64,000 nucleotides of DNA from a virus: the IMG/VR virus record IMGVR_UViG_3300021197_001365, positions 1 through 64,000 of that record. One strand, given 5' to 3'. A program made the position numbers and the translations under genes. Shown here one piece after another: positions 1 through 31,439 of the stretch (its first letter is position 1; every line of letters begins with the position of its first letter). The notes beneath the pieces are model-generated. The model saw nothing but the letters and a program-made list of their open reading frames with translations. It was not told the origin of the DNA and made no database searches.

Positions 1-66
1 CATCATAGTCAAGAATCCTGACAAAAGTCCCTGAGTTAAATTTTACCTCTATAGTTTAAAAATTAA

Positions 67-95
67 ATTATACCGAGGTGGAGTTCGAATGTCAA
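67..95 (-). promoter_or_regulatory. Sigma70 promoter TTGACA-N17-TATAAT, pointing to a gene left of the window
   Basis: Exact consensus hexamers on the minus strand (90-95, 67-72), just after the TBDR terminator. Confidence 0.85.
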
Positions 96-116
96 GATGT
101 TTTTTTAGTTAGGAGT

Positions 117-147
117 AATAAAAAAGGGGCCGTAGCCGACCCCTTGT
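117..147 (-). terminator. Intrinsic terminator of the TBDR gene
   Basis: Minus strand AAGGGGTCGGCTACGGCCCCTTTTTT hairpin plus U-run directly after the stop codon. Confidence 0.8.
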
Positions 148-148
148 A

Positions 149-2920
149 TTAGAACGTATAGTTAAATCCTATGCTGTAGTTTTTGCCATACATATCGTAC
201 TGGCTTAATTGAGATTCGTTTCCCCAGTAGTAATATTCTGGTCTATTGTTTAAGTTCACTGCCTCTGCTTTAACAGTGAAGTTATCATTAACAGCATATT
301 TGACTGTTAGGTCCCATTGTATAAAGTCACCAACAAATCTACTATTGTTAACACTTACTTCCCCAATGTCGCCATCTTCATCTGCTAACCAATCTAAGTA
401 ATCACTTCTATAGTTACCAGCAACTCTTATATCCCATGCACCTTTGTCGTAGCCAAAGTTAACGTTAGCAGCTTTATCGGCTAACTTACGGAACGAAGTT
501 GTAAATGATACATCATCTTCAAAGTTAAATGCGCTTTCACTGTCTGTTAGTGTAAAGTTAGTTGCTACATACAATCCATTTTCCCATCCGTATTGTGCAT
601 TAAGTTCTATGCCATTAATTCTGCTGTCATCTGCATTGATCCATGTTTCAACACCATCATTAAACGATATGCCGTTGAACACACCATTGCGTTGGTATGT
701 TGGATAAATTGCATTAGCAATACTCTTATGGAAGTAACCCACTGCAAAGTAAGTCATACCTTCTCCATAATATTCTAAACTTAAATCAAAGTTATCTGCT
801 TCGTATGGCTTTAGGTTTGGATTACCAATGCTACCACTTGTATCACCTGATGTGTCTACATCATAATCTGTGATAGGAGCAGTTTCTTTGAATCCTGGTC
901 TGCTTAAACCTCTCCACAATGCACCACGTACTTGCCAATTGTCTGTGAGCCAATGCTTAACAGTTACACTAGGAGCAACAAAGCCATAGTCATTCTCTGC
1001 ATAAGTTTTATTGCCGTCTTGGTCGTATGCTGTACTTTCAAAGTCAGTATGCTCATAACGTACACCTGCAATAATAGTAGTTTTTTCTAATTCAACTGTG
1101 CGTTGTGCATAAACACTATTAATTGTTTCATCAGTTATAAAATCTCTGCTGATGTCATCGCTGAAATCTACTGTCATTTGGTCAGTTAGACTTCTAAGGT
1201 TATATGTTTCCTGTGCAGTCATATGATTACCAAACACTTGATTTGGAAAGAACCAACCAGGCGCAGTTGTAAATTCAAAGTCTGCCATAGTCATATCGTC
1301 CCATTCATACGCAATAATATAATCATCTACATCCTTAGTTCTGCCTCTGTACTTGTAACCTACCTTCCATAACCCGTTGTCTGCGTTTATTTGAAATGTA
1401 GTTTCGCTATCTTTACTGACATTACTCCACATTTCAAAAGCATCAAACTCTAAGTTCTCTGAATTACGCAAAGTATCATCTACAGGTGTAACAAATGGAT
1501 GAACAGGATTGCTCCAATCAAATACTGCACCACTGTCTTTGTCGTAGTTTCTAAATGTAATGTCAGCATTATCGCTGTCATCTTCTTCAGCCCAACTATA
1601 ACTTAGTTGCGAGTCTACTGCCCAATCAGCCATATCAAATTCTGCACCAAGGTTCATAGCACCTATAGTTCTTGTTTCATATCGCTGTCTTGTTTCTGCA
1701 TCGTGTCTAACTCTGCTGGACAACATACTGTTTTCAAAAGGCTCAGCCATTTTGATTTTGCCATATTCATTTTTAAAACGAATCTCATCTTCTTCATACT
1801 GGTTGTACAAAATATTAGCAAATACCACAGCACCACTTTCTAACAATGTGTTGATGTCATAACTAAATCCGTAACGCTCTCTGGTTAAGTCATAATAGCG
1901 TAACTCAAAGTCATCATTCATGTATCCATCTTCCCAGCCAAATCCAGTTTCATTATTATAACTTTCAATGTTCTTTGAACTGTAAGTTAGTCCCATGATG
2001 TGAGCAGTGTTGTCTGTAATACTGTCGCCATATGTTACGCTAAAGTTAGGAGCTTGTTCATAGTCTGTATACTCCGCAAACTTACTGCTAACTTTTACTT
2101 TTAACAACATTTCATCTAAGTCAGTTGGCTTCTTGGTATTAAATTCAATTCTGCCGCCAATGCTGTCTGAATCCATTTCAGGTGTTAAAGTTTTTGAAAC
2201 TGTAATACTGTCCATAAGTTCAGTGGGTATGCCGTCCATTATTACTGAACGTCCGTTTTCAGGTGCAACCATACTAGCACCGTTTACTGCTACACTGTTT
2301 AAGTCTGAACTTAATCCTCTAATTGTAACATAACGTCCTTCGCCCTGATCATTTTCTACACTTATACCACTTAATCTTCTAATGGCGTCTGCGGCTGTTG
2401 TATCAGGAAAGTTGCCTAATGCATCTGAGTCTACAACACTGATAATACCATCAGCCATCATCTGTTTGTCTACTGCTCTCATAAGTGTTGCTCTGGTTCC
2501 TACAACAAGCACTTCTTCAACAGTAGGGTCGTACGTTGGAGTGTTATCTCTGTATTGTTGAAACTCTTCAACAACTTCTTCTATTGGTGCATTTACTAGA
2601 AGTACTCTTGCATTTACAATGCCCATTTCAGTTAATGCATCATATCTGTGGTGCCCATCAATAATATAATATTGCTGATCGATAACCAAAGGCCTATAAG
2701 TATTTTCTTGTGCCTTGATTAATCTCTTCTCTTGCTTCTTTAAGTTTTGAACTCGTTGAGTCTGCACAGGAATTAAACTGCTTACAGGTACTTCTGTTGC
2801 AGTAAATTCAAATTGTGATTGTTCTAGGATTTCTTGATTTAGTTGGGGGAGTTGATTTCTGTCATATTGTGCAAATACAATAGTAGGCACCAACAGCATT
2901 GCTAAAAATAAATAACGCAT
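149..2920 (-). CDS. TonB-dependent outer-membrane receptor with N-terminal ParB/Srx-like domain
   Basis: Likely start MRYLFLAM at 2920 (GGAGAG SD); signal peptide; PLVID..IIDGHHRY motif; TonB box VEEVLVVGTR; plug motifs (NFPDTTAADAIRRLSG, GEGRYVTIRGL, DSIGGRI); barrel ending in C-terminal Phe (GFNYTF). Confidence 0.93.
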   Translation of the reverse strand: MRYLFLAMLLVPTIVFAQYDRNQLPQLNQEILEQSQFEFTATEVPVSSLIPVQTQRVQNLKKQEKRLIKAQENTYRPLVIDQQYYIIDGHHRYDALTEMGIVNARVLLVNAPIEEVVEEFQQYRDNTPTYDPTVEEVLVVGTRATLMRAVDKQMMADGIISVVDSDALGNFPDTTAADAIRRLSGISVENDQGEGRYVTIRGLSSDLNSVAVNGASMVAPENGRSVIMDGIPTELMDSITVSKTLTPEMDSDSIGGRIEFNTKKPTDLDEMLLKVKVSSKFAEYTDYEQAPNFSVTYGDSITDNTAHIMGLTYSSKNIESYNNETGFGWEDGYMNDDFELRYYDLTRERYGFSYDINTLLESGAVVFANILYNQYEEDEIRFKNEYGKIKMAEPFENSMLSSRVRHDAETRQRYETRTIGAMNLGAEFDMADWAVDSQLSYSWAEEDDSDNADITFRNYDKDSGAVFDWSNPVHPFVTPVDDTLRNSENLEFDAFEMWSNVSKDSETTFQINADNGLWKVGYKYRGRTKDVDDYIIAYEWDDMTMADFEFTTAPGWFFPNQVFGNHMTAQETYNLRSLTDQMTVDFSDDISRDFITDETINSVYAQRTVELEKTTIIAGVRYEHTDFESTAYDQDGNKTYAENDYGFVAPSVTVKHWLTDNWQVRGALWRGLSRPGFKETAPITDYDVDTSGDTSGSIGNPNLKPYEADNFDLSLEYYGEGMTYFAVGYFHKSIANAIYPTYQRNGVFNGISFNDGVETWINADDSRINGIELNAQYGWENGLYVATNFTLTDSESAFNFEDDVSFTTSFRKLADKAANVNFGYDKGAWDIRVAGNYRSDYLDWLADEDGDIGEVSVNNSRFVGDFIQWDLTVKYAVNDNFTVKAEAVNLNNRPEYYYWGNESQLSQYDMYGKNYSIGFNYTF

Positions 2921-2963
2921 AATGCTCTCCTTTTGCTTTGGGTAAATTTTTACCACAGAAGAT

Positions 2964-2997
2964 ATTATACCACAAGATTGTTACAATTTTATGAAAA
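2964..2997 (-). promoter_or_regulatory. PhoB-type promoter: Pho box plus extended -10
   Basis: Minus strand TTTTCATAAAATTGTAAC (14/18 to CTGTCATAAAACTGTCAC), exactly 10 bp upstream of TATAAT (preceded by TGG); no TTGACA. Confidence 0.78.
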
Positions 2998-3037
2998 CAC
3001 CGTTTAACGTTTTTGCTTTTTTTCCAAAGTGGTACGT

Positions 3038-3090
3038 GTGGGGGAGCGCGGCCGCGCTAAATGAGAATGAGTCTCATTACCGCCCCCCCA
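3038..3090. repeat. Palindrome cluster at the left edge of the pre-early block (possible terminal-repeat boundary)
   Basis: Perfect 14-bp palindrome AGCGCGGCCGCGCT (3045-3058), Fur-like palindrome (3060-3078), flanking G-run and C-run; composition shifts here. Confidence 0.55.
3060..3078. promoter_or_regulatory. Fur-box-like inverted repeat 1
   Basis: AATGAGAATGAGTCTCATT; core TGAGAAT-G-AGTCTCA is 11/14 to the 7-1-7 Fur motif TGATAAT-N-ATTATCA. Confidence 0.5.
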
Positions 3091-3148
3091 TACAGCAAAG
3101 ACCCCTGGCGGGCAAGCATTTTTTGTGACATATTACCACTTTTATTTC

Positions 3149-3177
3149 TTGCATTATGGCCCAGGATGGGGTACAAT
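3149..3177 (+). promoter_or_regulatory. Pre-early promoter TTGCAT-N17-TACAAT
   Basis: Near-consensus hexamers upstream of the pre-early operon. Confidence 0.65.
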
Positions 3178-3206
3178 AGGCACTTAATAAATCGAGGCGC
3201 TACGCT

Positions 3207-3311
3207 ATGACAACACTGCAAATTTTTATCATGCTCGGACTGGCATCACCCGCTCTAATTGCTGTGGCGTGGGGCATTTGGGATCAACGTCCAAGCGCGC
3301 GAAAATGGTAA
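3207..3311 (+). CDS. 34-aa single-TM peptide
   Basis: MTTLQIFIMLGLASPALIAVAWGIWDQRPSARKW with GAGG SD; below the ORF-track cutoff. Confidence 0.55.
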   Translation: MTTLQIFIMLGLASPALIAVAWGIWDQRPSARKW

Positions 3312-3409
3312 TATTTCACAAAAATATATCTGGACTTCTGCGCGTCAATATGAGACAATTCATTTCAAGGTGGAGCGATGGGCGCTCGACCTCAACAAAA
3401 GGAGGCTCT

Positions 3410-3721
3410 ATGCCTTATTCAGAAAAGCAGGTTGTGGCACTGCAAAACGCCGCTACTCAATTCGGTACTCTCAACAGTGAGATTGCCGGTAAACTCGCGG
3501 CTGACCTTGGTCAGTCAAAGCGGAGCGTGATCGCTAAGATCGGCTCGCTCGGTTTGCCTTATAAGGCGGCCAAGCGTTCGGTGAAAGGCACTCGTGCCAC
3601 TAGCAAAGCGGAATATGTTGCCGCTATTGCCAAGGCGCTCGACGCTGATGCGTCGGAGCTGGCTGGCTTGGAAAAAGCCACCGCTCTCGCTCTCTCTGGC
3701 TTGCTGTCATCAATTCGATGA
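3410..3721 (+). CDS. T5 A2-like pre-early DNA-binding protein
   Basis: AAGGAGG SD; IAGKLAADLGQSKRSVIAK and SKAEYVAAIAKAL..LAGLEKA resemble T5 A2 as I recall it. Confidence 0.75.
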   Translation: MPYSEKQVVALQNAATQFGTLNSEIAGKLAADLGQSKRSVIAKIGSLGLPYKAAKRSVKGTRATSKAEYVAAIAKALDADASELAGLEKATALALSGLLSSIR

Positions 3722-3915
3722 TAGCGGTTATCGGCTGGATAGGGGCGCTCTGCATGGCAGGCGCTCCATTCATTATCGACACCGACGCGGGCAAGGTCGC
3801 CGCGATTGCTGGATTGGTATTATTAACGGTACAAGCGCTGGACATTCGGGCAATGAATCTGGTACTATTAAATCTGGCTGGAATTATAGGATATAGCTAT
3901 GCACTACTTTTTTGA
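3718..3915 (+). CDS. Small hydrophobic membrane protein
   Basis: 65 aa, nearly all hydrophobic, ATGA-coupled to the A2-like gene. Confidence 0.65.
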   Translation: MIAVIGWIGALCMAGAPFIIDTDAGKVAAIAGLVLLTVQALDIRAMNLVLLNLAGIIGYSYALLF

Positions 3916-4372
3916 CCTCGACCATACGGTCATCGATTCGTCACACCGACAGATCACACGACCGGACGGCTCGCTTGACCTCGCCGCGTGGATTCACAAC
4001 AACACTCGCGCTAACATCATGGCAGACACTCTGCTACCGCTCGCCGCACAATGGCGCAAGGTAGATCGCAAGGGCGCGACTATCGTGATCTGTACCGCTC
4101 GCGTTATGGGTGAGCATGACTACGAATATCTGCGCGCAAATGGGTTGCGTTGGGACGCTTGCCTCTCGCGTCGATTGGGTGACAGCTCACCCGATGCGAA
4201 ATTAAAAGAGCGTATGATCCGCAACTATGCCGCTACATTTCCGGTATCATGGGCGCGGTTCTGCTCAACAGCCGTCTTTTTTGACGACAACAAAAATGTG
4301 CTTGAAATGCTTGATCGCATTGGCATAAAAGCGTATGATTCTATTTTACTCAACGAAAGGTTATCAGCATGA
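3899..4372 (+). CDS. dmp: HAD-family deoxynucleoside 5'-monophosphatase (T5 Dmp-like)
   Basis: FDLDHTVIDSSHR (DxD motif I), ICTAR (II), K (III), FFDD (IV); IMADTLLPL and DYEYLRANGLR segments resemble T5 Dmp. Confidence 0.8.
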   Translation: MHYFFDLDHTVIDSSHRQITRPDGSLDLAAWIHNNTRANIMADTLLPLAAQWRKVDRKGATIVICTARVMGEHDYEYLRANGLRWDACLSRRLGDSSPDAKLKERMIRNYAATFPVSWARFCSTAVFFDDNKNVLEMLDRIGIKAYDSILLNERLSA

Positions 4373-4869
4373 TTTTACGAAGTTACGACAAAGCACCAGA
4401 GATCACCCCGATTTCTGGCATGGCATGGCACTACGTTTGGGAATTGCTCGAATTTGGTGTTTTCAAAAATGGCTACGCTTGCCACGCATACGCCAACGGC
4501 GGGCATGGCGGTATTGAGCGCGTAACATGGTGTTTGCGAGATGTCGAGGACGCATTTGGCTACAATCGCGGAGAGCTTCACGCTCGCGTTTGGCGAATGA
4601 AGCTGGGCGAGAATGAGGAAGTTTTAGCCGCCGAGCAATTTGTCCACGCTCGCAACAAAGATGACAAGGCCATGCTGTATGACAAGCGCTGGCTGGACGT
4701 TGGCGGCAAAAGCGAATTTTACTTTTGCTCTGCCAAAACTGCGATGGCGCGGTTCACTAATTCCTATCGCAAATCCAATTTGCAGATTGGCGAGGGTGTC
4801 GTCGCTCACAAGCGAGCCAAGGGCATACACGGTTGCCCACTGCCCCGCACTTATGCGGTGACGGCGTGA
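4369..4869 (+). CDS. Pre-early protein, possible GIY-YIG/T5orf172-like nuclease
   Basis: FKNGY...ERV...AAEQFVH...GKSEFY pattern resembles KxG..R..E..H..EWF of T5orf172/MUG113. Confidence 0.45.
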   Translation: MILRSYDKAPEITPISGMAWHYVWELLEFGVFKNGYACHAYANGGHGGIERVTWCLRDVEDAFGYNRGELHARVWRMKLGENEEVLAAEQFVHARNKDDKAMLYDKRWLDVGGKSEFYFCSAKTAMARFTNSYRKSNLQIGEGVVAHKRAKGIHGCPLPRTYAVTA

Positions 4870-4958
4870 GATATCTTGCGCTGGCCTATTTGGTTTATTC
4901 TGTCACCACAGATCTAGCGATCTGGGGTGGCGCGCTTTACTACTTTTTCGGAGGATGA
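4866..4958 (+). CDS. 30-aa hydrophobic peptide
   Basis: GTGA overlap with the upstream stop; MRYLALAYLVYSVTTDLAIWGGALYYFFGG. Confidence 0.5.
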   Translation: MRYLALAYLVYSVTTDLAIWGGALYYFFGG

Positions 4959-4962
4959 AAAA

Positions 4963-5085
4963 ATGAGCCAACTGGAAAAAATCCAATTCACAATGGAAAT
5001 TATCCGCACGGTTTGCCCCGTCGTCATGGTGATACTGCAAATCGCCATCATCACCGGCCTTGTAATTATGGGCGATATGGGCTAG
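4963..5085 (+). CDS. 40-aa single-TM peptide
   Basis: GGAGG SD; MSQLEKIQFTMEIIRTVCPVVMVILQIAIITGLVIMGDMG. Confidence 0.6.
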   Translation: MSQLEKIQFTMEIIRTVCPVVMVILQIAIITGLVIMGDMG

Positions 5086-5090
5086 GGCTA

Positions 5091-5109
5091 GATGAGAACC
5101 ATTCTCATT
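5091..5109. promoter_or_regulatory. Fur-box-like inverted repeat 2
   Basis: GATGAGAACCATTCTCATT; core TGAGAAC-C-ATTCTCA is 11/14 to the 7-1-7 Fur motif. Confidence 0.55.
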
Positions 5110-5148
5110 TGGGCCAGGAAATAAAATAATCTTTTTTGCAAATAGGGC

Positions 5149-5178
5149 TTGACACCCCTGCATTTTTTGCGCTAAAAT
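5149..5178 (+). promoter_or_regulatory. Promoter TTGACA-N18-TAAAAT
   Basis: Upstream of the acidic mini-gene. Confidence 0.7.
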
Positions 5179-5221
5179 GTTTACATCAACTAGGGGATTG
5201 GCCCCATTTAAGGATAGAAAA

Positions 5222-5389
5222 ATGTCACACTACGTAAACGAAGCCAACGCCGAAGCCTGCTACGAAGAAGCCTGCGAAGCGGGTTACGCTTTTTTCGCCG
5301 AGGCGGACTGGGACGGCCAAGCGTTCGAGGCTTGGGTAAACTGGAAAACGGATGAGCTTCTTTCTGAGCTTCCCGACGGCTACCGTTAA
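5222..5389 (+). CDS. 55-aa highly acidic pre-early protein
   Basis: TAAGGA SD; 13 D/E versus 2 K/R; has its own promoter. Confidence 0.7.
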   Translation: MSHYVNEANAEACYEEACEAGYAFFAEADWDGQAFEAWVNWKTDELLSELPDGYR

Positions 5390-5405
5390 TGTTCCACATG
5401 GAACA
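5390..5405. promoter_or_regulatory. parS-like palindrome
   Basis: TGTTCCACATGGAACA, 15/16 to the chromosomal parS TGTTCCACGTGGAACA. Confidence 0.7.
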
Positions 5406-5412
5406 CCTCGCC

Positions 5413-5425
5413 CAACTCCTTGATT
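5413..5425 (-). promoter_or_regulatory. IHF consensus site
   Basis: Minus strand AATCAAGGAGTTG matches WATCAANNNNTTR exactly. Confidence 0.5.
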
Positions 5426-5452
5426 TATCAGGGATTTCGGCGCGGGGGCGCC

Positions 5453-5609
5453 AGTAGTAGTGCGACGACGATTTTCTTTGGTGGTGCCTGCGCCATTGTA
5501 CCAGTTCGAAAGCGATTTGTCAAGTCTTTTTTGCGGGTGTGCCCCAAATTGTTTTAAGTTGCCCTGGTCTTAAAAATTGCGCCGATTATAGTAGTAGTAC
5601 GACGACGAT
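5453..5609. repeat. Two copies of a 20-bp direct repeat
   Basis: AGTAGTAGTGCGACGACGAT (5453-5472) and AGTAGTAGTACGACGACGAT (5590-5609), 19/20 identical. Confidence 0.9.
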
Positions 5610-5715
5610 GTCAAGTACTTTTTGCACATTTGCCCAAAATAATTCGACGCGCTAGTCTCTGCCAGACCCCGTGCCCAACCCTGGTATTATATCATAACCC
5701 AGGCGGGGTTGTCAA
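5495..5715 (-). promoter_or_regulatory. Three tandem leftward sigma70 promoters with no downstream ORF
   Basis: TTGACA-17-TACAAT (5495-5523), TTGACA-18-TATAAT (5585-5614), TTGACA-18-TATAAT (5686-5715). Confidence 0.75.
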
Positions 5716-5882
5716 GTACTATTTAGGGTTTTCCTGCATATTGACAACTTACGCGCACTTATGGTACTATAATTCGACAAAATTTGCTACAATTAGACAA
5801 AATAAACCTTGACACGGGAAGGTCGTGTGCGGCCCCCCGGAGTTCGTTTGCGTTATCCTGGCGACCAATTCGCAAAAAAGTG

Positions 5883-5911
5883 TTGACAACTTGCCCAAAC
5901 TTTAGTATAAT
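5883..5911 (+). promoter_or_regulatory. Early promoter TTGACA-N17-TATAAT
   Basis: Exact consensus; a further rightward candidate TTGACA-18-TACTAT lies at 5741-5770. Confidence 0.85.
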
Positions 5912-5937
5912 AGTTACCATAAATCGGAGGACTATGC

Positions 5938-6126
5938 ATGAACGATATTCAATTCGAAGCCTTTAGCTTGTACGCGGGTATGCGTATGGAAGGTATGCCT
6001 AAGCTGGATGCCTTTCTATATACTATACAGTGTATGCTTCCAGAGGACGACTACCCCAACGGATACGACGATGGTGCAGTAGAGCTGTACTCTTGGTTGC
6101 GTCAGAAGGTGAAGCTGGATGGCTAA
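5938..6126 (+). CDS. Hypothetical small acidic protein
   Basis: GGAGG SD, first gene after the promoter. Confidence 0.7.
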   Translation: MNDIQFEAFSLYAGMRMEGMPKLDAFLYTIQCMLPEDDYPNGYDDGAVELYSWLRQKVKLDG

Positions 6127-13070: not shown

Positions 13071-13451
13071 ATGTACTCAGAAAAGGTATTAGATCATTAT
13101 GAAAATCCCCGGAATGTCGGAAAACTTGACAAAAATGATGAAGATGTCGGAACGGGCCTCACAGGTGCTCCAGCATGTGGAGACGTCATGCAACTTCAAA
13201 TCCGAGTATCGACCGACGGAATTATTGAAGATGCTAAATTCAAAACTTACGGATGCGGCAGTGCTATTGCTTCTTCATCACTACTCACAGAATGGGTTAG
13301 AGGAAAGTCCCTTGACGAAGCGGGAAAGATCAGCAATGTCCAAATTGCTCAAGAATTATCACTTCCGCCAGTAAAAATACATTGTAGCGTATTAGCGGAA
13401 GATGCTATCAAAGCAGCCATCACGGACTATAGAACTAAACATGGGGCCTAA
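13071..13451 (+). CDS. iscU: Fe-S cluster scaffold protein
   Basis: YSEKVLDHYENPRNVG, GAPACGDVM, FKTYGCGSAIASSS, LPPVKIHCS. Confidence 0.96.
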   Translation: MYSEKVLDHYENPRNVGKLDKNDEDVGTGLTGAPACGDVMQLQIRVSTDGIIEDAKFKTYGCGSAIASSSLLTEWVRGKSLDEAGKISNVQIAQELSLPPVKIHCSVLAEDAIKAAITDYRTKHGA

Positions 13452-14848: not shown

Positions 14849-15445
14849 ATGAATCTTTTTTATCTTGACGAGAACTTGGACAAGTGTGCCGAGTATCATG
14901 TCGACAAACATATTGTAAAAATGCCATTGGAAGTTGCCCAGATATGCTGTACAGCAGTTTGGGTAGATGTGCATTTGGGTTTTGTACCCCGGGCTTTGAA
15001 TAAATCAGAGTCAGATTATCTTAACTCCTTGAAGAAGGAGATTAAACACTTACCGCCTGAAAGCAGACCACTCACTCCTTACCTGCCTATGATGTACAAT
15101 CACCCTTGTACTATCTGGGCACGTAGTTCTTTGGATAACTATGAGTGGACACACTGCTATGGCAATGCGCTCGGAGAGGAGTATCGCTATCGATATGGCA
15201 AACAGCACAAATCAGTCACAGTTATCAACAAACTGCCCGACATTGTCAAAATGGAAAGACTTGGATTTACCACTTTCGGATTGGCAATGCCAGACGTGCT
15301 CAAAGACTATGACAATCCTATACAGTCTTATCGTGACTACTATCATCTCGATAAGGCTACTTTTGCCAGTTGGACTGGGAGACCTGCCCCCTCATGGTGG
15401 GATGATTCTCTCGCAGATTACGAGGCAAGGATCACGAGAAAATAA
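14849..15445 (+). CDS. Pyrimidine-dimer DNA glycosylase (DenV-like) family protein
   Basis: MNLFYLD..HVDKHIVKMPLE..NHPCTIWARSS..AMPD..SYRDYY. Confidence 0.8.
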   Translation: MNLFYLDENLDKCAEYHVDKHIVKMPLEVAQICCTAVWVDVHLGFVPRALNKSESDYLNSLKKEIKHLPPESRPLTPYLPMMYNHPCTIWARSSLDNYEWTHCYGNALGEEYRYRYGKQHKSVTVINKLPDIVKMERLGFTTFGLAMPDVLKDYDNPIQSYRDYYHLDKATFASWTGRPAPSWWDDSLADYEARITRK

Positions 15446-15603: not shown

Positions 15604-15939
15604 ATGAAAAAACTAGGCTTTTGGGTGTATGACACCTACAATTTCTTTTTTAGTCTTAAAATGAACCCTTTAAGATTTATACCAAATGCGTTTACACAGT
15701 ACATACTGATGTTTTATCTATCGGTCATGTGGACAGTTGTATTTACGCTTTGGACTGGATATAGTATTTATTTTGGCCTTGGAAGTGTCGGTGGACACCT
15801 ATTAGTAATTAGTGCTTTTTTTATCACTGCTCTTACCTTTCAAGATGCAGAAAAGAATGGGCATTTATGGGTACAGCGAGTTCAGCCTACCCCAGTACAG
15901 AACAGGAGAGGTGTGTGGAACCTGGAAAAGGAGGGATGA
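15604..15939 (+). CDS. Hypothetical membrane protein
   Basis: Two TM segments. Confidence 0.7.
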   Translation: MKKLGFWVYDTYNFFFSLKMNPLRFIPNAFTQYILMFYLSVMWTVVFTLWTGYSIYFGLGSVGGHLLVISAFFITALTFQDAEKNGHLWVQRVQPTPVQNRRGVWNLEKEG

Positions 15940-25877: not shown

Positions 25878-26365
25878 TAGTAAACTACAATAATTTAACA
25901 AAAATAACATTTCCTGTCTACAAGATTCCCAATAGTAACTGGGAGCTTGTAGACGGGCTCTTATTTTTAGATAATGAAGTTTTAGATGACAGAAATCAAA
26001 AAGGAAAAACTCTTGGTATAAGGCGTGCACAAACTTCATTTGATTTATTTCCGTTGAAGCATTCAATAGCCAGTCTTACAGGTATTTTAAAGCAGAATGA
26101 CAAAACTTTTATAGACACAAAGGGTACTCCTTTTATCTATCAAAAAACAAGAAATTCTGCTTTAAAGTATTATAAGATAAGAAAAGTAGAGCAGAAAGGA
26201 GTAGTTTCCATATTGTGGCTAAAAGATATTAAGTCGCCATTTACAATTCCTCGTCCCCCGCCTTTGGGAATGACTTGGGCGGGTGTTTTACATATCGAAT
26301 CTTGGCCGTGGATTTTGTACTGCTATTCTAAAACGTATCAGAAACCTTCTAGAAGAAAAATATGA
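25874..26365 (+). CDS. Conserved T5-like hypothetical protein
   Basis: Coupled between pol and D10, as in T5. Confidence 0.7.
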   Translation: MIVNYNNLTKITFPVYKIPNSNWELVDGLLFLDNEVLDDRNQKGKTLGIRRAQTSFDLFPLKHSIASLTGILKQNDKTFIDTKGTPFIYQKTRNSALKYYKIRKVEQKGVVSILWLKDIKSPFTIPRPPPLGMTWAGVLHIESWPWILYCYSKTYQKPSRRKI

Positions 26366-27645
26366 AAGCAGTAATTAGTAATCGTATATATTTAGAATGC
26401 AATCGTGAGTTTAGAGAAGCGCTCTCTAAAGAACTTACATATAAAATTATGCCTAGAAATCCTAATGATCCTCCAATCATTATTAAAAATATGGCTCGAA
26501 TACGAGAAAACTTAGTAACTCTTCCAATAGGAAGAACGGATCTTATACCTAATCATTATGAAATTGTTGACAAGAGGACTCTGGTGCCTGTTGATTTTCC
26601 TGATTTTCGCTATGTACTCCGCGAATCTCAACAAGCCGTCTACGAAGAACTCGATGATAACTGTATCATCAATGCGTGGGTAAGTTGGGGAAAGACCTTT
26701 ACGGGACTAGCAATAGCTGGAAGGTTAGGACAAAAAACGTTAGTAGTCGTGCATACTGTACCATTACGAAACCAATGGGCAAAGGAAGTAGAGAAAGTCT
26801 ATGGCTTTACTCCTGGAATCATAGGAAGCGGTAAGTTTGATATTGAACCGCCTATTGTAATAGGAAATACACAGAGTCTTTATCGAAACATTCCAAAGAT
26901 TCAAAAACAATTTGGTACAATTATTCTTGATGAAATGCATCATGTAAGTAGCCCCACTTTTTCTAAAATTATCGACACAAACTATGCAAGATATAAGATA
27001 GGATTATCGGGCACTATTGAAAGAAAAGATGGTAAGCACGTAGTTTTTCGTGATTACTTTGGAAGTAAGATATTTAAACCGCCAAAAGAAAATTTTATGA
27101 CACCTAAAGTCCATATAATCAAATCAGATGTTCGTTTTATGGATGGAGCTAGAATACCTTGGGCAAATAGAGTAACAAGTCTTGCAAATGATGAGGAGTA
27201 TAAACATATGATTTCTATGTTATCTTCTTTTTATGCTGCAAAAGGACACAAAGTGTTAGTAGTTTCAGATCGAGTTAGCTTTTTAAAAAACTGCTCTGCC
27301 TTAGTTGGAGAAACTGCAATTTGTGTAACAGGAGAAGTACCCCATGAAGAACGTGAAACCCTTCTTGATGAAATTAACTACGGAAATAAAAACATACTGT
27401 TTGGTACTCAAGCGATATTTAGTGAAGGAATTTCAGTCAATTCCCTCTCTGTGCTTATACTCGGTACCCCTATCAACAACGAACCCCTTCTCACCCAGCT
27501 CATCGGAAGAGTTATCCGAGAGCAAGAAGGAAAACCCACCCCTGTAATAATAGATATTCACTTAAAAGGAAATACTGCTCGAAAGCAGGCTTCAAATAGA
27601 ATGGGTTACTATATAAAGCAGGGTTGGAAAATAACTCAAACATAG
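26362..27645 (+). CDS. SF2 helicase (T5 D10/UvsW-like)
   Basis: WGKT, DEMHH, GLSGT, QLIGRVIR. Confidence 0.92.
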   Translation: MKAVISNRIYLECNREFREALSKELTYKIMPRNPNDPPIIIKNMARIRENLVTLPIGRTDLIPNHYEIVDKRTLVPVDFPDFRYVLRESQQAVYEELDDNCIINAWVSWGKTFTGLAIAGRLGQKTLVVVHTVPLRNQWAKEVEKVYGFTPGIIGSGKFDIEPPIVIGNTQSLYRNIPKIQKQFGTIILDEMHHVSSPTFSKIIDTNYARYKIGLSGTIERKDGKHVVFRDYFGSKIFKPPKENFMTPKVHIIKSDVRFMDGARIPWANRVTSLANDEEYKHMISMLSSFYAAKGHKVLVVSDRVSFLKNCSALVGETAICVTGEVPHEERETLLDEINYGNKNILFGTQAIFSEGISVNSLSVLILGTPINNEPLLTQLIGRVIREQEGKPTPVIIDIHLKGNTARKQASNRMGYYIKQGWKITQT

Positions 27646-27687
27646 AAAAATAGTTCTTGACAATAACCTTAATTTTTAGTATAATAT

Positions 27688-28098
27688 ATGCTTCTATATG
27701 ACTGGCAAAAAATCTTTACCGCAGCATCGGGTAAACCAAGTACAATCTTCTTAATCTTTGAGATGCTTGTAAAAAAGTCTATACCGGAAAATAGGTTTGA
27801 TCCTACTTACCGTTTTTCTGACTTAAACTTTACAGGTGATTCGTTCTTGGCACATCCCGATGTTCTTTTGTATAATTCATTTAGACACCCTCGTCGTGAT
27901 GTTGCTCTGTACTTGGCCTTGGCTAGTATGAGGTCTTTAGCAGAGTTTCTTATCAACGACAAAACAACGCTAGATCTCTTGGAATGTCCACTAGATCCTT
28001 TTGAACACTTAGAAGATGATAGGCTACTTTATATCGAAGATAATGAAATACATTTTTTATATGAAGAAGTCCCAAAGGAGAAAACACAATGGCATTAA
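27688..28098 (+). CDS. Hypothetical T5-like protein
   Basis: Syntenic between D10 and D11. Confidence 0.7.
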   Translation: MLLYDWQKIFTAASGKPSTIFLIFEMLVKKSIPENRFDPTYRFSDLNFTGDSFLAHPDVLLYNSFRHPRRDVALYLALASMRSLAEFLINDKTTLDLLECPLDPFEHLEDDRLLYIEDNEIHFLYEEVPKEKTQWH

Positions 28099-28718
28099 GC
28101 TTTAACAAGTCAAAGGGCGCTGCCCAAAAATCTAACATCACCACTTTTGGTTATCAAGATGGTGATAACTCAGTACGTCTCGTAGGCGATATTCTTGCTC
28201 GATATGTATACTGGGTTACAGGCGAAAACGATAAGAATATTCCTCTGGAGTGTATGTCGTTTGATCGTAATGAAGAGCGGTTCAACAACAAAGAAAAAGA
28301 TTGGGTTCGTGAGTACTACCCCGATCTAAAGTGTGGCTGGAGCTACGCAATGCAATGCATTCACAACGGTGAAGTCAAAGTAATCAATCTAAAGAAGAAG
28401 CTGTGGGAGCAAATTCTTACTGCTGCAGAGGATCTTGGAGATCCTACTGATTCTGAGACTGGTTGGGATGTTAAGTTCAAGCGAGTTAAGACCGGCCCAC
28501 TGGCTTATAATGTAGAGTATCAGCTTCAAGTATTGAAGTGCAAGCCCCGTGCTCTGACTGATGAGGAAGCGGAACTTGTAGCATCTTTGAAGTCTATGGA
28601 TGATGTTATGCCTCGTCCTACTCCGGATGCTCAAAAAGAGCTGTTGGATCGTATTCGACAGCCCGCAACAAATGAAATTGATGAAGAAGCACTTGATGCG
28701 GAGTTTGCTATTTCATGA
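28089..28718 (+). CDS. T5 D11-like ssDNA-binding protein
   Basis: VRLVGDILARYVYW..DLGDPTD..GPLAYNVEY; acidic tail. Confidence 0.85.
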   Translation: MALSFNKSKGAAQKSNITTFGYQDGDNSVRLVGDILARYVYWVTGENDKNIPLECMSFDRNEERFNNKEKDWVREYYPDLKCGWSYAMQCIHNGEVKVINLKKKLWEQILTAAEDLGDPTDSETGWDVKFKRVKTGPLAYNVEYQLQVLKCKPRALTDEEAELVASLKSMDDVMPRPTPDAQKELLDRIRQPATNEIDEEALDAEFAIS

Positions 28719-29674
28719 TCCTTTTTACGGCAGACTGGCACTTAAAGCTAGGTCAGAAAAATGTTCCACGCGAGTGGGCACTCAACCGTTATAAATTATT
28801 TTTTGAGCAGATTCATTCTCTCGAAAAGCAATGCAATATGCATATTATAGGTGGAGACCTTTTTGACCGTCTGCCGAACATGGAAGAACTGGAACTGTAC
28901 TTTTCGTTTATTCGGAAAGTACAGATTCCGACTCTTATCTATGATGGCAATCATGAAGCTACAAAGAAGAACAAAACATTTTTTACTCAGCTAAAGCAAG
29001 TGAGTAGAGATATTAACCCTTTAGTACAAATAGTGGATATTTCGTATCATGATTCCGATTTTGGTTTTGGTGTTCTTCCTTACGCCGACTTACATAGAAA
29101 AGGAAGCATTGAGAAGTTTGTACAAACAGAACCACTCTTTACTCATGTACGAGGGGAGATACCTCCGCACGTCAAGCCAGAGGTGGACTTAGACAGATTT
29201 GAGGATTTTCCAATCGTCTTTGCAGGCGATTTACACGCACATAGTAATACACAAAAAAATATTGTATACCCTGGCTCGCCTATGACTACTTCTTTTCATA
29301 GAACAGAAGTAAAGACAGGCTGTATCTTGATTAATCCAAATGATTGGTCATGGATATGGGAACCGTTTGATCTACCACAGTTACTTCGTAAAACTGTATC
29401 TGATCCAGCTGAAATGATTCCTACAGACTTTCATCATACAATCTATGAGATAGAAGGAGATATTCAGGATCTAGCCGCTATTAAGAATAGTGAGCTGTTA
29501 GATAAAAAAGTTGTAAAGCGTAGTAGTGAAGCAACTTTAGTAATAGAAAAAGATATGAGCATCCAAGAAGAGTTGGCAGAATATCTTGCATACATCTTGG
29601 AATTAGAAGAAGATAAAATACAAAGTATAGTAGGTACTTTTAATGATTACGCTCAAAAAGTTGCAGTGGGATAA
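28715..29674 (+). CDS. SbcD/Mre11-like nuclease (T5 D12)
   Basis: ADWH, GGDLFD, GNHE, GDLH, YPGS. Confidence 0.92.
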   Translation: MILFTADWHLKLGQKNVPREWALNRYKLFFEQIHSLEKQCNMHIIGGDLFDRLPNMEELELYFSFIRKVQIPTLIYDGNHEATKKNKTFFTQLKQVSRDINPLVQIVDISYHDSDFGFGVLPYADLHRKGSIEKFVQTEPLFTHVRGEIPPHVKPEVDLDRFEDFPIVFAGDLHAHSNTQKNIVYPGSPMTTSFHRTEVKTGCILINPNDWSWIWEPFDLPQLLRKTVSDPAEMIPTDFHHTIYEIEGDIQDLAAIKNSELLDKKVVKRSSEATLVIEKDMSIQEELAEYLAYILELEEDKIQSIVGTFNDYAQKVAVG

Positions 29675-31439
29675 TTGTTTTAGCTATGGCTCTAACAATA
29701 TATTAGACCTACAAGAAAATACAGTAACTCAAATTATTGGCACTAACGGTATGGGGAAGTCCTCTATACCGTTAATTATTGAGGAAGCCTTATTTAATAA
29801 AAACTCAAAAGGTATTAAAAAGGCAGACATTCCGAATCGTTATGTAAACAATGGCTATCACATCTATTTGGAATTTTCCAAAGATACGGATGAGTATAGT
29901 ATCGAAATTGATAGAAAGTCAAGTATAAAAGTCAAGCTAGTAGAAAATGGAGACGATATTTCTAGTCATACAGCTACAAACACTTTTAAAACAATTCAAG
30001 ATATTCTTGGTGTTGATTTCAAAACTTTCTCTCAACTAGTCTATCAAAATACAAATGCCAGTCTACAGTTTCTTACGGCTACTGACACGACTCGTAAAAA
30101 GTTTTTGATTGACTTACTACACCTGGAAGAGTATGTAGAACTATTTGAAGTATTTAAAAATACCTCAAGAGAGCTTTCAAATGAAATTGCAGGGATTCGA
30201 TCAAAGATAGCAACAGTAGAAAAATGGTTGACAGATAATAAATTAGAGGATACAACCATACTGCCAATGTTAAAAATTGAAAATGATACGGCAGAACTTG
30301 AGAAGGATTTCCGTTCTTTAACGATGGGAATTGAAAATATTTCCGAAAAAAATAAAAAAATCTCAAAAAATAATCAGTACATAAAGCTGTTGAAAGATAT
30401 TGATATTGATAAAGTTCAGAATATCGAAATTAATGAAAAACAATCCTATGATGGCTTACAAGCAGACTTAGGAACCTTAAACGGGGTCGTAACGGGGTCA
30501 CGAAAACTTATTAAAAAGTTGCACGACTTAGAAGATAAATGCCCAACTTGTGAGCAAACAGTTCCAGAAACTTTTAAACAAACACTGATTGCGGAAGAGA
30601 CGGGTAAGATTTCTTACGCACAGGAGAAAATGAGTGACATTACAACAAGAATTGAACAAATTAAGCGACAAAATGAGCAGTTTGAATACAAAACAAAAAT
30701 GCAGCGAGATTGGGAAGACCTCTACCGAAGTGTTGACCGAACTCTCCCAGTGGCCCTCGTGGATAAAGGAGAGCTCGAAAGGCGCTTGGAGAGAGTACGA
30801 GCTGACTTGGTTTCGGTGCAAGAGTGTATATCGAGCACGGCAAAGGAAAATGAAAGACGAACTCGACAGAACACACGCATCCAAGTAATTCAAGAGCAAA
30901 CAGACGAATTTATCAATCAATTAAATGAAGCAGAGAGTAGCCTTTCTAATTTAGATTCTTTGTACTCGAACTTAGAAGTGCTGAAAAAAGCATTTAGTAC
31001 AAATGGCCTCATTGCATACAAGATTGAAAATCTAGTCAAAGAGCTCGAAGAGCTTGTAAATACATACTTAGCGGAGCTATCAGATGGGCGATTCACTTTG
31101 GAGTTTGTTGTGTCAAACGATAAACTCAACGTTCAGATCACTGATAATGGCAACATTGTGGATATCCTTGCTCTTTCTTCTGGCGAGCTTGCTAGGGTAA
31201 ATACAGCTACTCTTATAGCTATTCGTAAACTTATGAGTAGCATATCGAAGTCCAGAATAAATATACTCTTTCTGGACGAAGTTATAAACGTACTCGACGA
31301 AACAGGTAGAGAAAAGCTGGTAGAAGTTTTACTTGAAGAAGACAACTTAAATACTTATGTAGTAAGTCATGGTTGGACTCATCCTCTTCTTGAAAAAATC
31401 GAAGTCGTTAAGCGAGAAAATGTGAGCGCACTAGAATGA
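29643..31439 (+). CDS. SbcC/Rad50-like ATPase (T5 D13)
   Basis: GTNGMGKS, CPTC hook, LSSGE, LFLDE. Confidence 0.94.
   Translation: MITLKKLQWDNCFSYGSNNILDLQENTVTQIIGTNGMGKSSIPLIIEEALFNKNSKGIKKADIPNRYVNNGYHIYLEFSKDTDEYSIEIDRKSSIKVKLVENGDDISSHTATNTFKTIQDILGVDFKTFSQLVYQNTNASLQFLTATDTTRKKFLIDLLHLEEYVELFEVFKNTSRELSNEIAGIRSKIATVEKWLTDNKLEDTTILPMLKIENDTAELEKDFRSLTMGIENISEKNKKISKNNQYIKLLKDIDIDKVQNIEINEKQSYDGLQADLGTLNGVVTGSRKLIKKLHDLEDKCPTCEQTVPETFKQTLIAEETGKISYAQEKMSDITTRIEQIKRQNEQFEYKTKMQRDWEDLYRSVDRTLPVALVDKGELERRLERVRADLVSVQECISSTAKENERRTRQNTRIQVIQEQTDEFINQLNEAESSLSNLDSLYSNLEVLKKAFSTNGLIAYKIENLVKELEELVNTYLAELSDGRFTLEFVVSNDKLNVQITDNGNIVDILALSSGELARVNTATLIAIRKLMSSISKSRINILFLDEVINVLDETGREKLVEVLLEEDNLNTYVVSHGWTHPLLEKIEVVKRENVSALE

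What the first reader, a model, noticed from the sequence alone, without database searches (positions are those of the whole stretch)
149..2920. Phage-encoded TonB-dependent receptor fused to a periplasmic ParB/Srx-like domain
Seen: signal peptide, then a ~105-aa domain (about 2552-2869) with VPVSSLIPVQ..RPLVIDQQYYIIDGHHRY, then TonB box, plug and a complete barrel. Known: GxxR/DGHHR is the nucleotide-binding motif of the ParB/sulfiredoxin fold, and the slot between signal peptide and TonB box normally holds an STN signalling domain or nothing. Inference: this may be an enzyme-coupled transporter that binds or hydrolyses nucleotides or phosphate esters in the periplasm as they are imported. 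I do not know this architecture from any characterised protein, and an intact TBDR in a lytic phage is itself unusual. The plug motifs resemble TBDRs often found beside phytases/phosphatases, from memory.
Basis: partly seen in the sequence, partly recalled or inferred. Interest (0 to 1): 0.9.

Follow-up and report, generated by a model that had tools for sequence, protein, structure and literature searches.

The report
Phage phosphorus importer with periplasmic ParB domain
A marine T5-like phage carries an intact bacterial outer-membrane nutrient importer of the type that host bacteria pair with phytase for phosphorus scavenging, and a small phage-type ParB/sulfiredoxin-fold domain has been grafted onto its periplasmic end, an arrangement not found in the papers searched and whose biochemistry is untested.

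Summary
Window 149-2920 (-) is one 923-aa ORF: signal peptide, a 115-aa ParB/Srx-fold domain, TonB box, plug and a full barrel (TIGR01782, 442 bits).

The N-domain alone passes Pfam's ParBc_2 cut-off. Its model has pLDDT 91 and matches ParB, Noc, sulfiredoxin and SerK structures.

The record is an about 80%-complete T5-like siphovirus. The same fusion occurs in T4-like phage contigs and once in a cellular MAG. A sister phage carries an 86%-identical receptor without the domain.

The nearest cellular relatives are from SAR92/Porticoccaceae and SAR86. They lack the domain, and 65 of 80 have a beta-propeller phytase immediately downstream, often with PPK2, Ppx and PHO4.

I read it as a host-derived phosphorus-scavenging auxiliary gene, probably PhoB-controlled. 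What the domain does is unknown. It is under purifying selection and keeps a basic His/Arg motif, so I favour binding or hydrolysis of phosphorylated cargo, with low confidence.

Chimeric assembly is unlikely. This scan has noted the same fusion in three other phage genomes. I found no paper describing it.

The parts
149..2920 (-). Complete CDS of the fusion protein (923 aa plus stop codon)
   Evidence: ORF and translation. TIGR01782 at 441.9 bits, with Plug and barrel Pfam hits. The C-terminal residue is Phe, as in outer-membrane barrels.
2867..2920 (-). Sec signal peptide (residues 1-18, cleavage predicted after VFA)
   Evidence: Read from the sequence. A17 is invariant in 16 homologues. No signal-peptide predictor was available.
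2516..2866 (-). ParB/Srx-fold N-terminal domain plus linker (residues 19-135), with invariant R21, P25, Q26, P51, Q53, R56, P77, D81 and G89-H90-H91-R92
   Evidence: ParBc_2 at 25.9 bits against a cut-off of 23.6. AF2 model with pLDDT 91.2. Foldseek matches to ParB, Noc, Srx and SerK structures and to phage ParB/Srx proteins. Profile hit to 5k5a at E=4e-6. Conservation. dN/dS is 0.12-0.19.
2492..2518 (-). TonB box (EEVLVVGTR, residues 135-143)
   Evidence: E136, V139 and G141 are invariant. This is the start of the TIGR01782 match. It aligns with MEEIVVIGTK, which directly follows the signal peptide in the domain-less L002 homologue.
2153..2461 (-). Plug domain (residues 154-256)
   Evidence: PF07715 at E=7.9e-15.
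152..2140 (-). Beta-barrel (about residues 261-923)
   Evidence: PF00593 at E=4e-36 and PF14905. The AF2 full-length model shows long antiparallel strands with pLDDT 70-85.
2964..2997 (-). The gene's own promoter: Pho-box-like TTTTCATAAAATTGTAAC (2980-2997), a 10-bp gap, then extended -10 TGgTATAAT (2964-2972). There is no TTGACA -35.
   Evidence: Sequence and pattern match. 16 other promoters in the window carry a perfect TTGACW -35. Similar 11-bp-spaced direct repeats lie upstream of viral and cellular homologues. Function was not tested.
2927..2932 (-). Shine-Dalgarno AAGGAG, 6 nt before the ATG
   Evidence: Sequence.
124..145 (-). Intrinsic terminator directly after the stop codon
   Evidence: A 9-bp stem with 6 G-C pairs followed by a T-run.
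67..95 (-). Phage-type perfect consensus promoter (TTGACA-17-TATAAT) on the far side of the gene, reading off the contig end
   Evidence: this is one of 16 such sites against 0.11 expected by chance, so the short left flank also looks like phage DNA.

Best explanation
The gene is a real, intact auxiliary gene of an uncultured marine T5-like siphovirus.

Shown:
- It encodes a TonB-dependent outer-membrane transporter.
- Its plug and barrel belong to a clade whose cellular members, in SAR92/Porticoccaceae, SAR86 and related oligotrophic Gammaproteobacteria, sit in phosphorus-acquisition loci. A beta-propeller phytase lies directly downstream, with PPK2, Ppx, PHO4 or PhoA nearby.
- Between the signal peptide and the TonB box it carries a 115-aa domain with the ParB/sulfiredoxin fold.
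- The relatives of that domain are almost all cytoplasmic parts of phage proteins.
- The domain is under purifying selection and is exchanged as a module.

Inferred:
- During infection the protein is made from its own promoter, which lacks a -35 element and has a Pho-box-like sequence, so it would be switched on by host PhoB under phosphate starvation.
- It is exported by Sec, inserted into the host outer membrane, and energised by the host TonB-ExbBD.
- It increases uptake of phytate, inositol phosphates or another phosphate-rich organic compound, which feeds phage DNA synthesis.

Inferred with low confidence, about 0.3 on its own:
- The periplasmic ParB/Srx domain uses its conserved basic pocket (R21, R56, R76, H90, H91, R92, R105) to bind, and perhaps hydrolyse, the phosphorylated cargo as it leaves the barrel.
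- It would then stand in for the separate periplasmic hydrolase gene, which is absent next to every fusion copy.
For: Architecture.

Fold: the model has pLDDT 91.2. Foldseek hits to pNOB8 ParB-N, Srx, Noc, ParB and SerK have E from 2e-6 to 2e-3 and TM about 0.6. The profile hits 5k5a at 4e-6 and SerK at 2e-4. Matches to phage ParB/Srx proteins have TM about 0.7.

Phage identity:
- Tape measure, major tail protein, tail fibre, DNA polymerase, RNR and DnaB are present.
- The polymerase is 43% identical to those of T5-like phages.
- It is an IMG/VR virus record, about 80% complete.

Recurrence in phages:
- L002 and L009 share five flanking genes with this phage and carry the receptor, 86% identical, between them.
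- L006 carries it directly after T4-like gp18 to gp23.
- L001 has a 93%-identical allele in a likely T4-like context, resting on a borderline tail-tube hit.

Phosphorus link:
- Phytase lies directly downstream in 65 of 80 cellular loci, with PPK2, Ppx and PHO4 nearby.
- PhoA lies beside L012.
- Phytate is a published predicted substrate for this transporter cluster (PMC3400609).

Phylogeny: all viral copies plus L011-L013 form a clade with 100% support, sister to SAR92/Porticoccaceae.

Promoter.

Constraint on the domain: dN/dS is 0.12-0.19, and the family's invariant residues are kept.

No phytase, PPK2, PHO4 or Ppx gene was found in the phage record or in the viral loci.

Not a chimera:
- GC3 is 0.29, matching phage genes, against 0.53-0.57 in the closest cellular copies.
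- A phage-type promoter lies on the far flank.
- Unitigs from three studies tile the junctions.
Against: - No binding, catalysis, transport or expression was measured.
- The periplasm has no known NTP pool, so the usual NTP-switch chemistry of this fold may not apply.
- The sister phage (L002/L009) and the cellular L012/L013 do without the domain, so it is dispensable for the receptor's basic use.
- In the three genomes of the closest cellular clade no phytase was found, so the substrate of this sub-clade may not be phytate.
- The degenerate Pho-box pattern is not rare in the window, with 3 matches against 1.75 expected. Its support is positional and comparative only.
- In this record the gene lies 148 bp from a contig end.
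- In run X1 its unitig has lower depth (24.6) than the neighbouring phage DNA (56-131). This may reflect two alleles plus a collapsed terminal repeat, or carriage by only part of the population.
Confidence: 0.55

Rival explanations
1. The receptor is a phosphorus-scavenging auxiliary gene as above, but the ParB/Srx domain is a non-catalytic N-terminal extension. It would work like the STN or NTE domains of other TonB-dependent transporters: docking to TonB-ExbBD, to an inner-membrane or periplasmic partner, or to the plug, to tune gating or signalling rather than to handle cargo.
For: It occupies exactly the slot used by STN and NTE domains, between the signal peptide and the TonB box. The periplasm lacks NTPs. 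The domain is swapped between alleles as a module: L003 and L004 are 65% identical in the domain but 97% in the barrel, as expected for an interaction module. Domain-less versions exist in a sister phage.
Against: Every invariant polar residue of the wider, mostly cytoplasmic, family is retained, including G-H-H-R and four further Arg residues. That points to a conserved ligand pocket rather than a mere docking surface. No partner gene, such as an anti-sigma factor or TonB, was found in the record. Neighbouring ORFs have no informative Pfam hit.
Confidence: 0.25
2. The gene serves phage-host recognition rather than nutrition. T5-like phages adsorb to TonB-dependent receptors and encode blockers of their own receptor. 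The phage copy could replace or mask the host receptor, giving superinfection exclusion or protecting progeny from debris, with the N-domain altering its conformation.
For: The phage is T5-like. The gene lies at the end of the late block next to the putative pre-early region, where another first-reader note (e1-6091368) says T5 keeps its receptor-binding and receptor-blocking genes. The same cassette occurs in unrelated phages that probably share a host.
Against: Plug, barrel and TonB box are under strong purifying selection (dN/dS 0.02-0.14), as for a working transporter. The promoter looks nutrient-regulated rather than like the 16 constitutive phage promoters. T4-like carriers are not known to use such receptors in this way (my own knowledge). 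The shared-terminator part of that note was not confirmed.
Confidence: 0.1
3. The gene is host DNA joined to a phage contig by misassembly or mis-binning, so it is not phage-encoded in this record.
For: The gene is the last one before the left end of a linear, 80%-complete record. In run X1 its unitig depth is lower than that of the adjacent phage region, and the graph branches at about 121-136, 2901 and 3088.
Against: - A perfect phage-type promoter lies between the gene and the contig end.
- GC3 matches the phage, not the closest cellular copies.
- Close homologues are flanked on both sides by phage genes in L002, L009, L006 and L007.
- The branch at 2901 leads to another signal-peptide allele of the same gene start, not to its absence.
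- The stretch is held by seawater runs of 8 studies.
Confidence: 0.03

Closest known systems
Phytase-linked TonB-dependent receptors of marine Gammaproteobacteria (TIGR01782 'TonB-Xanth-Caul' subfamily; receptor plus beta-propeller phytase gene pairs)
   Same: Plug and barrel are 57-68% identical to copies in SAR92, Porticoccaceae and the K189A clade, and 41-51% to SAR86. The TonB box and the TIGR01782 match are the same. Pho-box-like repeats lie upstream of both. Phytate is a published predicted substrate for this cluster (PMC3400609).
   Different: The cellular copies start at the TonB box right after the signal peptide, and 65 of 80 have a phytase gene downstream. The phage copy has the extra 115-aa domain, no phytase neighbour and phage-like codon composition.
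ParB/sulfiredoxin (ParB-CTPase) fold proteins: ParB, Noc, pNOB8 ParB-N, sulfiredoxin, SerK, and phage 'ParB-like nuclease' proteins (PF08857, PF02195)
   Same: The fold matches. The Box I-like P-x-Q-x-x-R motif and the Box II-position G-H-H-R motif are present. The size, about 100 aa, is like Srx and the single-domain phage forms described in PMC12704722.
   Different: All characterised members work in the cytoplasm with NTPs. This one lies behind a signal peptide on an outer-membrane transporter. It has no DNA-binding or dimerisation domain and no Box III. The 2025 survey of fusions of this fold does not mention TonB, periplasm, signal peptide or outer membrane.
N-terminal extensions of TonB-dependent transporters (STN signalling domain of FecA/FpvA/FoxA-type transducers; NTE of SusC-like transporters)
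   Same: The position is the same, between the signal peptide and the TonB box, facing the periplasm.
   Different: The fold is unrelated, and no STN or other Pfam domain was detected. No sigma or anti-sigma pair was seen among the annotated neighbours.
Phage auxiliary genes for phosphorus and nutrient uptake (cyanophage pstS/phoA under host PhoB, from my own knowledge; putative SusC-like TonB-dependent receptor in marine megaphages, PMC9723777)
   Same: These are host-derived uptake genes carried by lytic marine phages. A Pho-box-like promoter suggests control by the host's phosphate regulator. A phage-borne TonB-dependent receptor has a precedent.
   Different: The receptor subfamily differs: the megaphage copy is 22.5% identical. 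The added ParB/Srx domain is new. The cassette recurs in both T5-like and T4-like phages.

Membership tests
TonB-dependent receptor/transporter (TIGR01782 subfamily) | Plug domain (PF07715) | tested here: met
   E=7.9e-15, residues 154-256.
TonB-dependent receptor/transporter (TIGR01782 subfamily) | 22-strand barrel domain (PF00593) and a full-length subfamily model above its cut-off | tested here: met
   PF00593 at E=4.1e-36. TIGR01782 at 441.9 bits against 310, covering model positions 1-868. The strand pattern appears in the model, but strands were not counted.
TonB-dependent receptor/transporter (TIGR01782 subfamily) | Signal peptide, TonB box before the plug, C-terminal aromatic residue | tested here: met
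   Read from the sequence. The TonB box is conserved in 16 homologues. The protein ends in Phe. No dedicated predictor was run.
TonB-dependent receptor/transporter (TIGR01782 subfamily) | TonB-dependent transport of a defined substrate | not testable with these tools
   Only gene context in relatives.
ParB/Srx (ParB-CTPase) fold superfamily | Sequence match to a family model | tested here: met
   PF08857 at 25.9 bits against a cut-off of 23.6 for the isolated domain, but 21.7 bits, below the cut-off, in the whole protein. The profile hits 5k5a at 4e-6 and SerK at 2e-4.
ParB/Srx (ParB-CTPase) fold superfamily | Three-dimensional fold | tested here: met
   The model has pLDDT 91.2. The top Foldseek hits with E up to 1e-3, and nearly all weaker ones listed, are ParB, Noc, Srx or SerK. 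Viral ParB/Srx hits have TM about 0.7.
ParB/Srx (ParB-CTPase) fold superfamily | Phosphate-binding Box II motif (GxxR) and Box I Arg | tested here: met
   G89-H90-H91-R92 and P51-x-Q53-x-x-R56 are invariant in 16 fusions and at least 90% conserved in 118 family members.
ParB/Srx (ParB-CTPase) fold superfamily | NTP binding or hydrolysis | not testable with these tools
   Nucleotide specificity cannot be predicted reliably from sequence or AlphaFold, according to PMC12704722 (section title).
Canonical ParB (partition protein, TIGR00180) | HTH DNA-binding domain, C-terminal dimerisation domain, Box III, ParA partner | tested here: not met
   TIGR00180 scores 12.4 bits against 58.45. The domain is followed directly by the TonB box. 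It is not a partition protein.
Phage auxiliary metabolic gene | Host-type metabolic or uptake gene inside a phage genome, flanked by phage genes | tested here: met
   This record has phage genes on one side and a phage-type promoter on the other. Homologues are flanked on both sides in L002, L009, L006 and L007.
Pho regulon member | Pho box at the -35 position; induction by PhoB under phosphate limitation | tested here: inconclusive
   A Pho-box-like 18-mer lies 10 bp upstream of TATAAT and no -35 is present. Similar repeats lie upstream of homologues. The pattern is not statistically rare in the window. Induction was not testable.

The most novel reading that the evidence does not exclude
The ParB/Srx domain is an active periplasmic module that binds or hydrolyses a polyphosphorylated compound (NTPs, inositol phosphates or polyphosphate) brought in by the barrel it is tethered to. 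The fusion would then be a self-contained, single-gene phosphorus-scavenging device that phages pass between unrelated lineages. It would also be the first ParB-CTPase-fold protein working outside the cytoplasm.
Probability: 0.2. Interest if true: 0.85.

Novelty: new variant of a known kind. Interest (0 to 1): 0.65.

Why it matters
Phosphorus limits much of the surface ocean, and phage replication is phosphorus-hungry. A phage-borne outer-membrane importer from the phytase-linked receptor clade would extend viral phosphorus-acquisition genes (known so far mainly as pstS, phoA and phoH) to TonB-dependent uptake of organic phosphorus. It would do so in SAR92-like heterotrophs rather than cyanobacteria.

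The domain graft matters for two fields:
- It places a ParB-CTPase/sulfiredoxin fold, so far known only as a cytoplasmic NTP-binding module, in the periplasm.
- It adds a new kind of N-terminal extension to TonB-dependent transporters.

Natural pairs with and without the domain, at 86% identity in related phages, make the question directly testable.

Tried and rejected
The contexts of the metagenome proteins P0014 and P0033 could not be read, so I used IMG/VR and GTDB loci instead.
- The full-length AF2 model has pLDDT 27-45 in the linker and plug, so nothing can be said about where the N-domain docks.
- Megablast of the first 8 kb found no cultured phage relative.
- tblastn of the receptor against cultured and deposited phages gave only five weak hits, all without the N-domain.
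- P0098, a cytoplasmic relative of the domain, has no match in deposited phages, although it is abundant in IMG/VR.
- The TBDR terminator is not repeated elsewhere in the window at up to 3 mismatches. The 'shared terminator' part of note e1-6091368 is therefore not confirmed.
- The degenerate Pho-box pattern is not enriched in the window.
- PhoH and TonB_C were not found in this 80%-complete record. Phytase, PPK2, PHO4 and Ppx were not found in the record or the viral loci.
- Circularising the contig does not restore the ORF that is cut at the right end, so the record is a fragment, not a closed circle.
- Contigs of an RNA library (X18) lie on parts of the gene at low depth. This does not show transcription.
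- Parts of the gene have no laid contig in X7 and X18. That is not evidence of absence.
- The protein Atlas gave only unnamed or ParB_N clusters.
Full report
**1. What is in the sequence**

The minus-strand ORF at 149..2956 is open. The real start is the ATG at 2920, six bases after AAGGAG. That gives a 923-aa protein.

The parts, in order along the protein:
- Residues 1-18 form a Sec-type signal peptide.
- The TIGR01782 'TonB-Xanth-Caul' model matches from its first position at residue 134 to the last residue. It scores 441.9 bits against a cut-off of 310.
- Pfam finds the plug at 154-256 and the barrel at 443-890.
- The TonB box EEVLVVGTR lies at 135-143, and the protein ends in Phe.
- Residues 19-133 are therefore an insert between the signal peptide and the point where a normal mature receptor begins.

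The gene has its own regulatory signals:
- An intrinsic terminator at 124-145.
- A promoter with an extended -10 (TGgTATAAT, 2964-2972) and no -35 element.
- In place of the -35, the 18-mer TTTTCATAAAATTGTAAC sits 10 bp upstream of the -10.

**2. The inserted domain**

Sequence and structure agree on the fold:
- Cut out alone, it passes Pfam's gathering score for ParBc_2, 25.9 bits against 23.6.
- A profile built from 118 family members hits the pNOB8 ParB N-domain (E=4e-6), serine kinase SerK (2e-4) and 1VK1.
- An AlphaFold2 model built on that alignment has pLDDT 91.2.
- The strongest Foldseek hits in the PDB, and nearly all the weaker ones listed, are ParB/Srx-fold proteins: pNOB8 ParB-N, sulfiredoxin, Noc, ParB and SerK.
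- In the viral structure library it matches phage 'ParB/Sulfiredoxin' proteins at TM about 0.7.

The conserved residues line up with known ParB motifs:
- R21, P25, Q26, P51, Q53, R56, P77, D81 and G89-H90-H91-R92 are invariant in 16 fusion proteins and at least 90% conserved across the wider family.
- P-x-Q-x-x-R aligns with ParB Box I.
- G-H-H-R aligns with the Box II GxxR phosphate-binding motif.
- There is no HTH, no Box III and no dimerisation domain, so it is a minimal Srx-sized module and not a partition protein.

**3. Is it really in a phage?**

The record is a single 77,735-bp IMG/VR virus contig, linear, with a CheckV completeness estimate of 80%.
- It encodes a tape measure, major tail protein, J-like tail fibre, DNA polymerase, DnaB, SbcC-like nuclease and RNR.
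- Its polymerase is 43% identical to those of T5-like Vibrio, Aeromonas and E. coli phages.
- The contig is truncated. A minus-strand ORF runs off the right end, and joining the two ends does not complete it.

The receptor gene lies 148 bp from the left end, so I treated a chimeric join as a serious possibility. Five results argue against it:
- The short left flank holds a perfect TTGACA-17-TATAAT promoter. That is one of 16 such sites in the window against 0.11 expected by chance. This is a signature of this phage.
- The gene's GC3 is 0.29, like the phage's genes (0.19-0.32). The closest cellular copies have GC3 of 0.53-0.57.
- Contigs L002 and L009 come from a related phage. Their flanking genes are mostly 59-84% identical to this phage's (one is 42%). 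They carry an 86%-identical receptor flanked on both sides by homologues of window genes 26362-31439.
- Contig L006, the end of a 169.7-kb contig, has the fusion directly after T4-like gp18, 19, 20, 21, 22 and 23. L001 has a 93%-identical allele in what is probably a T4-like context. That call rests on a borderline tail-tube hit, and the gene sits next to a TnsA-like endonuclease gene.
- The first 6 kb of the window is held by seawater metagenomes from 8 studies. Unitigs from three of the studies tile the junctions.

The depth figures in run X1 need explaining:
- They are 65.6 at positions 1-116 and 24.6 over the gene.
- They are 55.9 at 2901-3087 and about 131 from 3112 onward.
- The branch at 2901 leads into a second allele that has the same start codon but a different signal peptide.

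One reading is two alleles that together make about single-copy depth, next to a collapsed T5-type terminal repeat at double depth. The other is that only part of the population carries the gene. Contig depths cannot separate these.

**4. Where the two halves come from**

The barrel and plug:
- A scan of one genome per prokaryotic species found 157 relatives. The best 80 are all Gammaproteobacteria or unclassified Proteobacteria MAGs. They include SAR92/Porticoccaceae, the K189A clade, Luminiphilus, Pseudohongiella and SAR86.
- On a tree of 94 sequences, all viral copies plus three MAG copies (L011-L013) form a clade with 100% support. It is sister to the SAR92/Porticoccaceae copies.
- Only L011 among the cellular loci has the N-domain.
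- L011 is genuinely cellular. It is flanked by ribH, ribBA, ribE, ribD, nrdR and glyA on one side and an ABC-F ATPase on the other. Its GC3 matches its flanks.
- In 150 other genomes of L011's family the domain was not found. L011's own genome has a second copy, interrupted by a stop codon, on a 2.4-kb contig.

The domain:
- An exhaustive HMMER search of 1.84 billion representative proteins found only 185 relatives. Apart from one 275-aa fragment (P0073), only one representative (P0041) has the receptor architecture.
- Most of the rest have hydrophilic N-termini and are fused to Sod_Cu (17 of 118), NT5C (15), or zeta-toxin and AAA_33 kinases.
- Two of them, used as queries, each hit about 600 stretches in IMG/VR.

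So a phage-type cytoplasmic module was joined to a host-type transporter.

The domain is maintained by selection and moves as a unit:
- Its dN/dS is 0.12-0.19, against 0.02-0.14 for the plug and barrel.
- L003 and L004 are 97% identical in the barrel but only 65% in the domain.
- The sister phage (L002/L009) and L012/L013 lack the domain cleanly, with the signal peptide running straight into the TonB box.
- On the tree this fits one gain and two losses, or repeated exchange.

**5. What the receptor probably carries**

In 65 of 80 cellular loci the next gene downstream is a beta-propeller phytase (PF02333, E=1e-47). PPK2, Ppx/GppA and a PHO4 phosphate transporter recur upstream. L012 instead has a PhoA-type alkaline phosphatase nearby.

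Phytate is a published predicted substrate for this transporter cluster, and receptor-phytase adjacency has been noted before (PMC3400609).

Classical Pho boxes lie upstream of the cellular genes, for example in L054, L012 and L013. Repeats of the CTTAACA or CTGTAAC type, 11 bp apart, lie upstream of the viral ones.

The phage copies have no hydrolase gene beside them. No phytase was found in the three genomes of the closest cellular clade.

The receptor therefore belongs to a phosphorus-scavenging clade. The exact substrate of this sub-clade is open.

**6. Mechanism**

Best-supported reading:
- Under host phosphate stress, PhoB would activate the promoter that lacks a -35 element.
- The precursor is exported by Sec and inserted into the outer membrane.
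- It uses the host's TonB system, since the record has no TonB_C match.
- It raises uptake of a phosphate-rich organic compound for phage nucleotide synthesis.

These steps are inferred from family knowledge and gene context.

The role of the ParB/Srx domain is the real unknown. Three observations make me favour binding or hydrolysis of phosphorylated cargo:
- The phosphate-binding motif is kept.
- There is an unusually basic set of invariant residues.
- No neighbouring hydrolase gene is present next to any fusion copy.

I rate this at only about 0.3. A non-catalytic regulatory or TonB-coupling extension is nearly as likely. A receptor-masking role, by analogy with T5's receptor biology, cannot be excluded.

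**7. Novelty**

Already known:
- Phage-borne TonB-dependent receptors, as a SusC-like gene in marine megaphages (PMC9723777).
- Receptor-phytase gene pairs.

Apparently not described:
- The 2025 survey of ParB-CTPase-fold fusions does not mention TonB, periplasm, signal peptide or outer membrane in its main text (PMC12704722).
- My literature searches found no description of this fusion.
- Automated annotation misses the domain. None of about 50 homologues carries a ParB Pfam label.

This scan had already noted the same fusion in three other phage genomes, and my results agree with those notes. I add three points:
- A T5-like carrier.
- A cellular copy, which contradicts the 'only in phages' wording of one note.
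- Evidence that the domain is exchanged as a module.

I class it as a new variant of known kinds.

Noticed in passing
L002:378-2813 and L009 (IMG/VR 3300003474_000042 and 3300003477_000076): A related phage carries an 811-aa receptor, 86% identical in plug and barrel, with no ParB/Srx domain. It is inserted between the homologues of window genes 26362-27645 and 27688-28098, which in the window are separated by only 42 bp holding a consensus promoter. Upstream lies a CTTAACA-ATAT-CTTAACA direct repeat.
   Followed up: partly
window 13071-13451 (+): A NifU_N/IscU-like iron-sulphur scaffold gene (PF01592, E=5e-53), 84.5% identical to a gene in the T4-like contig L007. Two further genes, at 14849-15445 and 15604-15939, are also shared with that contig. 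This suggests gene exchange between unrelated phages of one host.
   Followed up: partly
window, 16 sites (for example 67-95, 5585-5614, 27657-27685, 59802-59830): Perfect TTGACW-N16-18-TATAAT promoters occur 16 times against 0.11 expected by chance. The TBDR promoter is an exception because it lacks the -35.
   Followed up: yes
P0059, P0098 and relatives; loci L091-L241: A family of marine phage proteins combines this ParB-like domain with Cu/Zn superoxide dismutase, NT5C 5'-nucleotidase or zeta-toxin-like kinase domains. They share a Lys-rich C-terminal module ending in the motif MYHWCANM. Each query hit about 600 stretches in IMG/VR. Function unknown.
   Followed up: partly
G000 76454-77735 (beyond the window) and window 1-3: A minus-strand ORF with Thr/Val/Ser-rich repeats (TVTVTSGST...) runs off the right contig end with no start codon for 149 codons. 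Joining the ends does not complete it, so the record is a fragment (CheckV 80%).
   Followed up: yes
window 1-6000 in run X1: Contig depth is about 131 from 3112 onward but 65.6 at positions 1-116. This fits a collapsed T5-type terminal repeat starting near 3090-3112, just beyond the receptor's promoter. The graph branches at 3088 in two studies.
   Followed up: partly
L001:4077-4520 (-): A TnsA-like endonuclease gene (PF08722, E=2e-20) lies directly downstream of the 93%-identical fusion allele, in a probable T4-like context. It may be a mobility factor for the cassette.
   Followed up: no
L006 and L007:12781-14472 (-): A 563-aa reprolysin-like (M12B) metallopeptidase gene is convergent with the fusion receptor in the T4-like phage.
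   Followed up: no
L243 (G001:C179:801-1175): The MAG that holds the cellular fusion (L011) has a second copy of the N-domain, 75% identical, with an in-frame TAA, on a 2.4-kb contig. It could be a pseudogene, a binned phage fragment or an assembly error.
   Followed up: no
window 3899-4372 (+): The ORF that another first-reader note called Dmp-like gives only a weak HAD_PNKP phosphatase hit (E=3e-4, below the cut-off). The ORFs at 3269-3721 and 4369-4869 have no Pfam hit.
   Followed up: partly
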